A DNA stretch of 64,000 nt, taken from NCBI RefSeq assembly GCF_036507355.1, contig NZ_AP027877.1, one strand, 5' to 3'. The position numbers were made by a program, and so were the translations under genes. A model generated the notes under the pieces. The model had not been told where the DNA came from, made no database searches, and was given only the letters and a program-made list of their open reading frames with translations. Below are positions 4,838 to 13,556 of this stretch, one piece after another (the stretch's first letter is position 1; each line of letters starts with the position of its first letter). Source of the DNA: Escherichia coli (GTDB lineage: Bacteria; Pseudomonadota; Gammaproteobacteria; Enterobacterales; Enterobacteriaceae).

Positions 4838-4969
4838 GCCGGATGCGGCGTAAACGCCTTATCCAGCCTACGTTCGGCAACGGTTGTAGGCATGATAAGA
4901 CGCGCAAGCGTCGCATCAGGCATCGTGCACCGATTGCCGGATGCGGCGTAAATGCCTTATCCGGCCTAC
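4838..4969. repeat. REP/BIME cluster: three REP units (4838-4871, 4886-4921 inverted, 4936-4969) in aceA-aceK intergenic
   Basis: Two copies of gccggatgcggcgtaaa(c/t)gccttatcc(a/g)gcctac flank an inverted gtaggcatgataagacgcgcaagcgtcgcatcaggc unit; classic REP palindromes. Confidence 0.85.
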
Positions 4970-8124: not shown

Positions 8125-8155
8125 GAAATAAAAAAGGCACCCGAAGGTGCCTGAG
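8125..8155 (-). terminator. Rho-independent terminator downstream of metA
   Basis: Minus-strand transcript has GGCACCTTCGGGTGCC hairpin followed by TTTTTTATTT; sits ~45 bp past metA stop. Confidence 0.7.
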
Positions 8156-9126: not shown

Positions 9127-9282
9127 AACCTGATTACCTCACTACATACGCTTATACGTTTAGACATCCAGATAGCTGAAGATAACCAGAAAATTTGCCA
9201 ATGTCGAGCCTGCATGTTGAAGGTGAGAAAGTTTCAAGGAAAAGACTACGTTAGAATATAAGAATGACTAAAAGGAGAGAAA

Positions 9283-9726
9283 ATGGTTATTAGTATTCGC
9301 CGCTCGCAGCATGAAGAGAGTGAAAAACTGATTGCGATTTGGTGTCGCTCGGTCGATGCCACCCACGATTTTTTGTCCGCAGAGTATCGGGCCGAACTGG
9401 AAGAACTGGTGCGTTCCTTTCTGCCGGAAGCACCGTTGTGGGTCGCGGTTAATGAGCGGGAACAGCCGGTTGGGTTTATGTTGTTAAGTGGGCAGCATAT
9501 GGATGCGCTGTTTATCGATCCTGATGTGCGCGGCTGCGGCGTGGGCCGGATGCTGGTGAAGCATGCGCTCTCAATGGCCCCGGAACTGACAACCAACGTT
9601 AATGAGCAAAATGAGCAGGCGGTTGGGTTCTATAAGAAGGTGGGTTTTAAGGTTACGGGACGCTCTGAGGTGGACGATTTGGGGAAACCGTATCCGTTGC
9701 TGAATCTGGCGTATGTGGGGGCGTAG
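9283..9726 (+). CDS. yjaB: GNAT-family N-acetyltransferase YjaB (147 aa)
   Basis: ORF translation MVISIRRSQHEESEKLIAIWCRSVDATHDFLSAEYRAELEEL...; aaaaggagag RBS upstream; divergent from metA. Confidence 0.9.
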   Translation: MVISIRRSQHEESEKLIAIWCRSVDATHDFLSAEYRAELEELVRSFLPEAPLWVAVNEREQPVGFMLLSGQHMDALFIDPDVRGCGVGRMLVKHALSMAPELTTNVNEQNEQAVGFYKKVGFKVTGRSEVDDLGKPYPLLNLAYVGA

Positions 9727-9789
9727 GTGATTTTTTTCTCATCCCGGTGGGCTGAACTTCAGGTTTCGTACCCACCAATGGTGACACGA

Positions 9790-10173
9790 TTATTTCTGCT
9801 TAAGCATTGCCATGACCGCACTATCACTGAGTACCGCTGATTGCGCATGGATGTGGAACTGGCGATATTTCATTAACGTTGCCCCAGCGACCACTTCATG
9901 GAGAATGCGTTCCTCAACCTGTGACAAACCGCCCTCATTCATTTCCAGCGCGCTCACAACAATATCCATACGTTTTGCTGGCAAAAAAGAATGCCAGGTT
10001 GAACGTGGGTGGAGTTGCAGAACAAGATCTTGCAGAACTTTTTCTGCAACAAAGAAATTGGCGATTAACAGGCGCTGGTTACTGAAGGCAGCGTCTCCTG
10101 ACACTTCACGTTTGCTTTCAAGATCGCGAACAGTAATTTGATTACGACGAATTTGGATATACAGAACTGACAT
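9790..10173 (-). CDS. yjaA: YjaA stress-response protein (127 aa)
   Basis: ORF 9790..10209 contains MSVLYIQIRRNQITVRDLESKREVSGDAAFSNQRLLIANFF; start taken at internal MSVLY (reverse-complement ATG at 10171-10173). Confidence 0.88.
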   Translation of the reverse strand: MSVLYIQIRRNQITVRDLESKREVSGDAAFSNQRLLIANFFVAEKVLQDLVLQLHPRSTWHSFLPAKRMDIVVSALEMNEGGLSQVEERILHEVVAGATLMKYRQFHIHAQSAVLSDSAVMAMLKQK

Positions 10174-10207
10174 GAGATTCCCTTCATCATGCAAATAATT
10201 GATATGC

Positions 10208-10240
10208 AAAAAACCCCGGCCTTATGGACCGGGGTTTTTC
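10208..10240 (-). terminator. rrnE operon terminator
   Basis: Minus-strand AAAAACCCCGGTCCATAAGGCCGGGGTTTTTT immediately 3' of 5S rRNA. Confidence 0.75.
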
Positions 10241-10247
10241 TAATTTG

Positions 10248-10367
10248 ATGCCTGGCAGTTCCCTACTCTCGCATGGGGAGACCCCACACTACCATCGGCG
10301 CTACGGCGTTTCACTTCTGAGTTCGGCATGGGGTCAGGTGGGACCACCGCGCTACGGCCGCCAGGCA
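10248..10367 (-). rRNA. rrfE: 5S ribosomal RNA
   Basis: Reverse-complement is the canonical E. coli 5S sequence (TGCCTGGCGGCCGTAGCGCGGTGGTCCCACCTGACCCCATGCCGAACTCAG...CATGCGAGAGTAGGGAACTGCCAGGCAT), 120 nt. Confidence 0.97.
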
Positions 10368-10460
10368 AATTCTGTTTTATCAGACCGCTTCTGCGTTCTG
10401 ATTTAATCTGTATCAGGCTGAAAATCTTCTCTCAATCCGCCAAAACAGCTTCGGCGTTGT

Positions 10461-13363
<2,903 letters not shown>

Positions 13364-13556
13364 TCACAACCCGAAGATGTTTCTTTCGATTCATCATCGT
13401 GTTGCGAAAATTTGAGAGACTCACGAACAACTCTCGTTGTTCAGTGTTTCAATTTTCAGCTTGATCCAGATTTTTAAAGAGCAAATATCTCAAACATCAC
13501 CCGAAGATGAGTTTTGAGATATTAAGGTCGGCGACTTTCACTCACAAACCAGCAAG

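What the first reader, a model, noticed from the sequence alone, without database searches (positions are those of the whole stretch)
10174..10247. yjaA starts 36 bp after the rrnE terminator hairpin
The rrnE terminator (10208-10240) lies only ~35 bp upstream of the yjaA start codon (10173) on the same strand, leaving almost no room for an independent promoter. yjaA may be expressed by read-through of the rrn terminator or from a promoter overlapping the terminator.
Basis: inference. Interest (0 to 1): 0.15.

Follow-up and report, generated by a model that had tools for sequence, protein, structure and literature searches.

The report
yjaA sits just behind rrnE terminator
A small stress-protein gene (yjaA) starts 34 bases after the stop signal of a ribosomal RNA operon with no recognisable promoter of its own, an arrangement kept across many enteric bacteria, so it is most likely fed by the small fraction of rRNA transcription that leaks past the stop signal, though nobody has shown this.

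Summary
On the minus strand, 5S rRNA (rrfE) ends at 10248. A canonical hairpin terminator occupies 10240-10208, and the yjaA ATG is at 10173, leaving a 34-nt leader.

- **No promoter found.** The best sigma-70-like match in the gap scores 3.7 bits, against about 11 bits for rrnE P1 and P2 in the same window.
- **Conserved arrangement.** The order 5S, hairpin, short leader, yjaA, (yjaB), metA recurs in about 17 Enterobacterales lineages. Pseudomonas homologues are not next to rRNA genes.
- **Polymorphic block in E. coli.** The hairpin and yjaA are present together in about 2,590 of 5,426 genomes. Strains without yjaA carry a different rrn-type hairpin plus a REP element. One strain has only the hairpin swapped.

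Best explanation (confidence about 0.5, unproven): yjaA is transcribed by leak-through from the very strong rrnE promoters. The main rivals are a weak or unconventional promoter overlapping the terminator, and passive synteny.

Points against leak-through: the terminator looks strong, and yjaA is reported as stress-induced. No mapped yjaA transcription start could be found in the accessible literature.

Interest is modest. In passing, YjaA models as an MreB-like actin-fold half-domain.

The parts
10248..10365 (-). 5S rRNA gene rrfE, the last gene of the rrnE operon. 16S lies at 15259-13718, the tRNA at 13632-13560 and 23S at 13363-10461.
   Evidence: Rfam RF00001 scores 92.8 bits at 10365-10250. 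The K-12 annotation extends the 3' end to the position equivalent to 10248.
10208..10240 (-). Intrinsic terminator of rrnE as found in yjaA-positive E. coli. It comprises the A-run GAAAAA, an 8-bp stem CCCCGGTC/GGCCGGGG, the loop CATAA and a T6 run. It is symmetrical, so it also forms a terminator-like hairpin with a U5 run on the plus strand.
   Evidence: The fold is -22 kcal/mol on the minus strand (z = -5.0) and -21 kcal/mol on the plus strand (z = -4.4). The stem alone is -15.4 kcal/mol with U6. It is single-copy and found only in yjaA-positive genomes, 2590 of 5426. The common variant is a loop SNP only.
10174..10207 (-). 34-nt yjaA leader, GCATATCAATTATTTGCATGATGAAGGGAATCTC. It includes the Shine-Dalgarno sequence GAAGGGAA (10185-10178) and the motif CATGAT (10191-10186), which is shared with close genera.
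   Evidence: Sequence read directly. The leader is identical in K-12, B2-type strains, the hairpin-swapped strain and E. whittamii. Motif conservation is shown in alignment A3. The best promoter-like scores are 2.4-3.4 bits.
9790..10173 (-). yjaA coding sequence, 127 aa, YjaA family stress response protein.
   Evidence: ORF list. NCBIfam NF041448 scores 177 bits against a cutoff of 125. RefSeq annotation agrees.
9722..10243 (-). Presence/absence block in E. coli, comprising hairpin, leader, yjaA and its 3' flank. In yjaA-negative strains it is replaced by an rrnB-T1/T2-like hairpin plus a REP-like element.
   Evidence: Alignment A1 of the window and K-12 against O157, 13P460A and WP4. Homology is lost about 5-7 nt after the 5S end and resumes in the last codons of yjaB.
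9727..9789 (.). Intergenic region between convergent yjaA and yjaB, with no canonical terminator on either strand.
   Evidence: Fold z-scores are -0.64 and +0.05. The scan finds no terminator here. The next minus-strand terminator is after metA at 8152-8135.
9283..9726 (+). yjaB, an acetyltransferase gene convergent with yjaA.
   Evidence: ORF list and RefSeq annotation.

Best explanation
yjaA behaves as a distal appendage of the rrnE operon. RNA polymerase that started at rrnE P1/P2 mostly stops at the hairpin at 10240-10208. A small fraction reads through and transcribes the 34-nt leader and yjaA.

Because rrn promoters fire orders of magnitude more often than ordinary promoters, a leak of about 1% would give roughly as much transcription as an average promoter. 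This is my own estimate from textbook initiation rates.

The read-through RNA would be separated from 5S by the normal RNase E cut just 3' of 5S. That would leave a yjaA mRNA whose 5' end carries the terminator hairpin, which could stabilise it. It would be translated from the Shine-Dalgarno sequence at 10185-10178.

**Shown here:** the geometry, the absence of an ordinary promoter, the conservation of the arrangement, and the co-inheritance of hairpin and gene.

**Inferred:** the read-through itself, the RNase E processing, and the stabilising role of the hairpin.
For: 1. No sigma-70-like promoter lies between the 5S end and the ATG. The scan finds none. The PWM best is 3.65 bits, against 11.15 and 10.85 for rrnE P1 and P2 and a median block best of 6.5.

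2. Only 34 nt separate the U-run from the ATG. The 74-nt gap from rrfE to yjaA is the shortest gap between a K-12 rrn operon and a co-directional gene among those checked: murB 300 nt, kgtP 322 nt, dkgB 162 nt.

3. The order 5S, hairpin, leader, Shine-Dalgarno, yjaA, (yjaB), metA is conserved across Enterobacterales. It is seen in Escherichia, Salmonella salamae, Phytobacter, Superficieibacter, Kosakonia, Franconibacter, Enterobacter, Samsonia, Pectobacterium and Brenneria. Leaders are only 30-54 nt in 13 of the 18 sequences tabulated.

4. The short leaders share little beyond the Shine-Dalgarno sequence and a CATGAT-like motif, which is not a conserved -35/-10 pair.

5. There is a precedent. 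rrnB T1 terminates 87% of transcripts, and the RrA/B/F sRNAs are made by reading through it. rrnE has only a single terminator (PMC8144298).

6. In strain EC42405 the hairpin is replaced by a different rrn hairpin while the leader and yjaA are unchanged. The gene therefore tolerates any rrn terminator upstream.
Against: - The hairpin looks like an efficient terminator (8-bp GC stem, U6, -15.4 kcal/mol). It is no weaker than the hairpins of yjaA-negative strains or of orthologues. The similar rrnB T2 was measured at about 100% termination.
- yjaA is described as stress- or acid-responsive and was over-expressed during slow growth on dihydroxyacetone. rrn P1 activity should be low under those conditions.
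- Pseudomonas homologues (about 40% identity) are not next to rRNA genes and must have their own promoter.
- Some orthologues have 79-123-nt leaders with promoter-like matches of 6.7-9 bits, although these are not above background.
- No transcript data were available.
Confidence: 0.5

Rival explanations
1. yjaA has its own weak, unconventional or activator-dependent promoter that overlaps the terminator and leader. The -35 would lie in the 3' arm or U-run of the hairpin. The -10 would be AATTAT (10200-10195) or CATGAT (10191-10186). Such a promoter might be switched on by stress.
For: - CATGAT, CATAAT or TTTAAT is conserved at the same place in E. coli, UBA5654, Phytobacter, Kosakonia S29, Superficieibacter and S. 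salamae. In each case a G-containing hexamer from the hairpin arm lies 16-17 nt upstream (19 in S. salamae).
- yjaA is reported as induced under acid or slow-growth conditions, which fits a regulated promoter better than rrn leak-through.
- Pseudomonas homologues have independent promoters.
Against: - Scores are only 2.4-4.8 bits, against about 11 bits for real promoters in the window.
- A CATGAT -10 would place the start inside or after the Shine-Dalgarno sequence, giving a 6-7-nt leader without a ribosome-binding site.
- AATTAT is not conserved in relatives.
- No TG extension is correctly placed (sequence).
Confidence: 0.27
2. There is no functional coupling. yjaA is simply trapped between two anciently fixed neighbours, rrnE and metA. 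The intergenic DNA has been compacted. The gene is poorly expressed and dispensable, so its expression mode is not under selection.
For: - About half of E. coli genomes lack the gene (2580 of 5426 carry it), and it is patchy in other genera.
- Many truncated forms appear in the protein database, and there is a truncated copy in P. zantedeschiae.
- rrn operon positions are conserved, so synteny alone does not imply coupling.
Against: - The protein is well conserved where present: 17 invariant columns across Enterobacterales and Pseudomonas.
- The Shine-Dalgarno sequence and start codon are maintained in all orthologues.
- Transcript changes are detected in published transcriptomes.
Confidence: 0.15
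3. The hairpin mainly serves the opposite strand. It would stop yjaB read-through and antisense transcription before this enters rrnE, and its closeness to yjaA would be incidental.
For: - The hairpin is symmetrical, with A and U runs on both sides: -21 kcal/mol and U5 on the plus strand.
- No terminator lies between yjaB and yjaA.
Against: - Every orthologue, including those without yjaB, keeps a hairpin 14 nt after 5S.
- The same hairpin types end other rrn operons.
- This reading does not answer how yjaA is transcribed.
Confidence: 0.05

Closest known systems
rrnB/rrnA/rrnD T1-T2 dual terminators with the RrA/B/F sRNAs (Stenum et al. 2021, PMC8144298)
   Same: A functional RNA is encoded directly after the first rrn terminator. 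It is made by read-through of that terminator, so its level is tied to rRNA transcription.
   Different: - The downstream product here is a 127-aa protein gene, not an sRNA.
- There is no second terminator after it.
- Read-through has not been demonstrated here.
Internal partial terminators that step expression down within operons, such as rpsU-T1-dnaG-rpoD and the rplL-rpoB attenuator (own knowledge)
   Same: A promoter-less downstream gene receives a small fraction of a strong upstream transcription unit through an intrinsic terminator.
   Different: Those are protein operons with measured read-through. Here the upstream unit is an rRNA operon transcribed by antitermination-modified polymerase, and nothing has been measured.
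Canonical rrn distal terminators (rrnB T1 and T2 types)
   Same: The position is the same, about 13-14 nt after 5S. The architecture is the same: an 8-9-bp GC stem, a 4-5-nt loop and UUUUUGC.
   Different: The stem sequence CCCCGGTC/GGCCGGGG is unique to the yjaA-positive rrnE allele and is single-copy per genome. yjaA-negative strains and other genera use T1- or T2-like stems.
Bidirectional intrinsic terminators between convergent genes (own knowledge of SEnd-seq/Term-seq work)
   Same: A symmetrical hairpin flanked by an A-run and a U-run.
   Different: Here it does not sit between the ends of two convergent genes. It sits between two co-directional units, and the convergent gene yjaB ends 480 nt away.

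Membership tests
Intrinsic (Rho-independent) terminator | GC-rich stem-loop immediately followed by a U-run on the transcribed strand | tested here: met
   8-bp stem with 7 G-C pairs and 1 G-U pair, 5-nt loop, U6. The stem is -15.4 kcal/mol and the context z-score is -5.0.
Intrinsic (Rho-independent) terminator | Structure kept across relatives despite sequence change | tested here: met
   At least five different stem sequences occur in 17 loci, all forming 8-9-bp hairpins of -15 to -19 kcal/mol followed by U5-6GC. The exceptions are UBA5654 (-9.2 kcal/mol) and Brenneria (longer stem, UUUCUGCG tail). The common E. coli variant is a loop-only SNP.
Intrinsic (Rho-independent) terminator | Measured termination in vivo or in vitro | not testable with these tools
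   No data were found for this hairpin. Only rrnB T1 (87%) and T2 (about 100%) are quoted.
Read-through (attenuated) downstream cistron of an operon | Co-directional gene directly after the terminator, with its own ribosome-binding site | tested here: met
   34-nt leader, with the Shine-Dalgarno sequence GAAGGGAA 5 nt before the ATG. The same layout is seen in orthologues.
Read-through (attenuated) downstream cistron of an operon | No independent promoter for the downstream gene | tested here: inconclusive
   There is no sigma-70-like site. Other sigma factors or activator-dependent promoters cannot be excluded from sequence alone.
Read-through (attenuated) downstream cistron of an operon | Transcripts physically spanning the terminator | not testable with these tools
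   No yjaA or rrfE entries appear in the held supplements of the 3'-end or TSS studies.
Sigma-70 promoter | -35 and -10 hexamers at 16-18 nt spacing, placed to give a 5' UTR that contains the Shine-Dalgarno sequence | tested here: not met
   The best is 3.65 bits (TAGGGA-17-TAGAAA, upstream of the hairpin). Within the leader the scores are 3.42 (TTTTTT-16-CATGAT) and 2.4 (AAGGCC-17-AATTAT). Real promoters in the window score 10-11 bits.
YjaA family (NCBIfam NF041448) | Full-length match above the curated cutoff | tested here: met
   177.4 bits against a cutoff of 125, over residues 1-125. There is no Pfam family.
Actin/MreB (ASKHA) fold | Fold-level match to an ASKHA subdomain | tested here: met
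   [not shown]
Actin/MreB (ASKHA) fold | Two-domain ATPase with a nucleotide-binding cleft, and significant sequence homology | tested here: not met
   The protein is only 127 aa, a single half-domain. There is no significant PDB sequence or profile hit.

The most novel reading that the evidence does not exclude
yjaA is a genuine distal cistron of the rrnE operon. It would be a protein-coding gene, encoding an MreB-like half-domain, whose synthesis has been wired to rRNA transcription by terminator leak-through since before the split of Enterobacteriaceae and Pectobacteriaceae. The terminator hairpin would double as the 5' stabiliser of the processed mRNA. That would make YjaA dosage a read-out of rRNA synthesis.
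Probability: 0.2. Interest if true: 0.55.

Novelty: new member of a known kind. Interest (0 to 1): 0.3.

Why it matters
If yjaA is really fed by rrnE read-through, it would be a rare case of a protein whose synthesis is coupled directly to rRNA transcription in enteric bacteria. It would extend the recently described rrn-tail sRNAs (RrA/B/F) to a coding gene.

It would also mean that microarray or RNA-seq changes in yjaA partly report rrn activity or termination efficiency rather than a stress regulon.

There is a practical point as well. yjaA is one of the Clermont phylotyping markers. This analysis shows that the marker is a roughly 520-bp block that includes the rrnE terminator itself. The block is exchanged by recombination, even with E. 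whittamii.

The question can be settled cheaply with existing dRNA-seq or Rend-seq tracks or a few reporter fusions.

Tried and rejected
- **Search for a mapped yjaA TSS or rrfE 3' end.** I looked in the held supplements of Adams 2021, ROSE 2023, Cappable-seq 2016, SMRT-Cappable-seq 2018, Conway 2014 and Cho 2014. Nothing was held or found. The Cho files lack neighbouring gene names too, so their silence is uninformative. Thomason 2015, Sanchez-Vazquez 2019, Ju 2019 and Liebke & Hatfull 1985 are not held.
- **Full-text searches.** Searches pairing yjaA with rrnE, rrfE, terminator, regulon or ppGpp returned only phylotyping papers, insertion-site mentions or gene lists.
- **Partial matches H20-22.** These looked like the hairpin occurring without yjaA, but they are rrnH (5S followed by tRNA-Asp). 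Rejected.
- **Phytobacter draft contig.** It seemed to have lost 5S upstream of yjaA. A complete Phytobacter genome shows an intact 16S-tRNA-23S-5S-hairpin-yjaA, so decoupling is rejected.
- **Sigma-E and sigma-32-like motifs.** Inspected by eye around the 5S 3' end. The spacings are wrong. This is inference only.
- **Promoter matches in long-leader orthologues.** They score 6.7-9 bits, which is not above the background of 6.5 median per 241 nt. They are therefore not taken as evidence of promoters.
- **Sequence-level searches.** Pfam and PDB searches on YjaA found nothing.

Full report
**What is in the sequence**

The window is E. coli. Positions 9700-10400 are 100% identical to strain DSM 103246 and 99.3% identical to K-12. 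The window is inverted relative to the K-12 map.

On the minus strand Rfam finds 16S (15259-13718), a tRNA (13632-13560), 23S (13363-10461) and 5S (10365-10250). This is the rrnE operon. RefSeq and K-12 annotation place yjaA, yjaB and metA next.

Reading the minus strand gives the following layout:
- Mature 5S ends at 10248.
- A trailer, CAAATTA, follows.
- Then come an A-run (10240-10235), the stem CCCCGGTC (10234-10227), the loop CATAA and the stem GGCCGGGG (10221-10214).
- A T6 run occupies 10213-10208.
- A 34-nt leader follows, with the Shine-Dalgarno sequence GAAGGGAA.
- The yjaA ATG is at 10173.

The hairpin is far beyond chance, with z = -5.0 and none of 200 shuffles folding as well. 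The ATG is the real start:
- YjaA matches NF041448 over its full length.
- Orthologue conservation begins at this methionine.

**Is there a promoter in the gap?**

The consensus scan finds no minus-strand sigma-70 site in 9600-10600. A position-weight scan that I wrote, using approximate consensus frequencies, was calibrated on the window itself:

| Site | Score (bits) |
|---|---|
| rrnE P1 | 11.15 |
| rrnE P2 | 10.85 |
| metA candidates | about 10 |
| Median best per 241-nt block | 6.5 |
| Best site with a -10 between the 5S end and the ATG (TAGGGA-17-TAGAAA, upstream of the hairpin) | 3.65 |
| TTTTTT-16-CATGAT, in the leader | 3.42 |
| AAGGCC-17-AATTAT, in the leader | 2.4 |

So the statement that there is almost no room for a promoter is supported for ordinary promoters. 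Alternative sigma factors or activator-dependent promoters cannot be excluded from sequence.

**The arrangement is old**

A scan of one genome per species with YjaA found 16 loci with 41-100% protein identity. Nearly all lie at a contig end, which is the signature of an rRNA repeat.
- Rfam finds 5S, and sometimes 23S, directly upstream on the same strand in seven of them.
- The 3' end of 5S is visible in most of the others.
- All 16 are the orthologous locus, followed by metA with or without a convergent yjaB.
- Complete genomes of Pectobacterium versatile and Phytobacter show the full operon running into yjaA.
- Salmonella enterica subsp. salamae has the same hairpin and a 30-nt leader.

Every orthologue keeps a canonical hairpin about 14 nt after 5S. 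Typical values are -15 to -19 kcal/mol followed by U5-6GC, and at least five different stem sequences are used. The terminator is therefore maintained, not eroded.

Leaders are 30-54 nt in 13 of the 18 sequences tabulated, and 79-123 nt in Franconibacter, Entomohabitans and two Pectobacterium species. Brenneria has 199 nt between the 5S end and the ATG.

Pseudomonas homologues (about 40% identity) are not next to rRNA genes. They diverge from tauE-lgt-thyA and sit 3 nt before a TANGO2-family gene. The rRNA linkage is thus an Enterobacterales feature, not a property of the protein family.

**Within E. coli**

yjaA follows rrnE in 2580 of 5426 complete genomes. The 74-nt hairpin-plus-leader is single-copy and occurs in 2590 genomes, essentially the same set.

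In yjaA-negative strains homology is lost about 5-7 nt after 5S and resumes in the last codons of yjaB. In between lie a different, rrnB-T1- or T2-like hairpin and a REP-like element. The Clermont marker is therefore a roughly 520-bp block that includes the rrnE terminator. Given the outgroups, the yjaA-positive state is probably ancestral.

Two natural variants are informative:
- About 1070 genomes differ by a single loop SNP that leaves the stem intact.
- Strain EC42405 has the T1-like hairpin in front of an unchanged leader and yjaA. This shows gene conversion with a boundary at the U-run.

**How it most likely works**

The best-supported reading is leak-through from rrnE P1/P2.
- It fits the lack of a promoter, the short conserved gap and the single terminator of rrnE.
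- The published precedent is that rrnB T1 stops only 87% of transcripts and that the RrA/B/F sRNAs are made by reading through it.
- The 74-nt gap from rrfE to yjaA is much shorter than the gaps to other co-directional genes after K-12 rrn operons, which are 162-322 nt.
- Because rrn promoters are so strong, a leak of about 1% would equal an average promoter (my estimate).
- RNase E processing 3' of 5S would leave the hairpin at the mRNA 5' end (inference).

Several points count against this reading:
- The hairpin looks efficient and is no weaker than its counterparts.
- T2-type hairpins were measured at about 100% termination.
- yjaA is described as stress-responsive and was up-regulated during slow growth on dihydroxyacetone.
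- Nothing has been measured.

The main rival is a weak or regulated promoter overlapping the terminator. The CATGAT/CATAAT/TTTAAT motif conserved in six genera could be its -10. However, it would put the transcription start in or after the Shine-Dalgarno sequence.

A third reading is passive synteny of a dispensable gene.

My confidences are 0.5 for leak-through, 0.27 for an overlapping promoter, 0.15 for passive synteny and 0.05 for a hairpin that mainly serves the opposite strand.

**Other structural points**

The hairpin is symmetrical and would also terminate plus-strand transcripts. There is no terminator between convergent yjaA and yjaB. The next minus-strand terminator is after metA at 8152-8135. 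Any read-through polymerase would therefore run antisense through yjaB and into metA.

**Comparison with known systems**

The arrangement works like the rrn T1-sRNA-T2 design and like internal attenuating terminators such as rpsU-T1-dnaG. It differs in having a protein gene behind an rRNA operon and no second terminator.

I rate it a new, unproven member of a known kind, with modest interest (0.3). It would rise to about 0.55 if the coupling to rRNA synthesis were demonstrated.

**Side finding**

Noticed in passing
[not shown]
   Followed up: partly
window 9722-10243; loci L002-L004: The yjaA presence/absence polymorphism used in Clermont phylotyping is a roughly 520-bp block that includes the rrnE terminator hairpin. 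yjaA-negative strains carry an rrnB-T1/T2-like hairpin plus a REP-like element instead, and the last codon of yjaB differs.
   Followed up: yes
L023 (E. coli EC42405) 674-750, against window 10174-10247: This is a natural hairpin swap. The CCCCGG hairpin is replaced by GGCCCAGTCGGAAGACTGGGCC, while the T-run, leader and yjaA stay identical. This implies gene conversion from another rrn operon, with its boundary at the U-run.
   Followed up: partly
L007 (Escherichia whittamii) 1-591, against window 10317-9727: The 5S end, hairpin, yjaA and the yjaA-yjaB spacer are 100% identical between E. whittamii and this E. coli window. The adjacent yjaB and metA are only 93.5-93.9% identical. This looks like recent transfer of the block between species.
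   Followed up: partly
window 9283-9726 (+): The window's yjaB allele is unusual. It is 92.6% identical to K-12 yjaB while both flanks are 99.7-100% identical. Only 1 of 5425 genomes matches 9150-9800 at 99% or better. This is a local mosaic or divergent allele.
   Followed up: partly
window 9727-9789 and 8135-8152: There is no intrinsic terminator between convergent yjaA and yjaB (fold z -0.6 and 0.05). The next minus-strand terminator lies after metA. Transcripts leaving yjaA would run antisense through yjaB. Transcripts leaving yjaB would run antisense through yjaA to the symmetrical rrnE hairpin.
   Followed up: partly
window 10186-10191 and 10244-10249 (-): The conserved leader motif (G)CAUGAUG can pair with CAUCA at the 5S 3' boundary, which is the RNase E processing site. 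In the 86-nt MFE fold this forms a 5-bp helix enclosing the terminator. The 5S side never varies, so covariation cannot test it. There is also a direct repeat, TTTGCAT at 10211-10205 and 10194-10188.
   Followed up: no
L025-L027 (Pseudomonas): YjaA homologues (about 40% identity) lie divergent from tauE-lgt-thyA and 3 nt upstream of a TANGO2-family (PF05742) gene, near ptsP. This is a likely two-gene operon, unrelated to rRNA genes.
   Followed up: no
window 10208-10240: The scan_promoters_terminators tool did not report this textbook terminator. This is probably because stem extension into the A/T runs removes the T tail. It is a caveat for relying on that scan.
   Followed up: no
window 10172-10199 (+): A plus-strand promoter-like site, ATGAGA-16-AATAAT (9/12), points into the hairpin and 5S antisense. 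It is at chance level: 1 found against 1.0 expected.
   Followed up: no
window 4889-4966 (-) and 13371-13479 (-): Rfam matches naRNA4/CssrE (81.8 bits) and StyR-44 (122.9 bits). StyR-44 lies just upstream of 23S inside rrnE.
   Followed up: no
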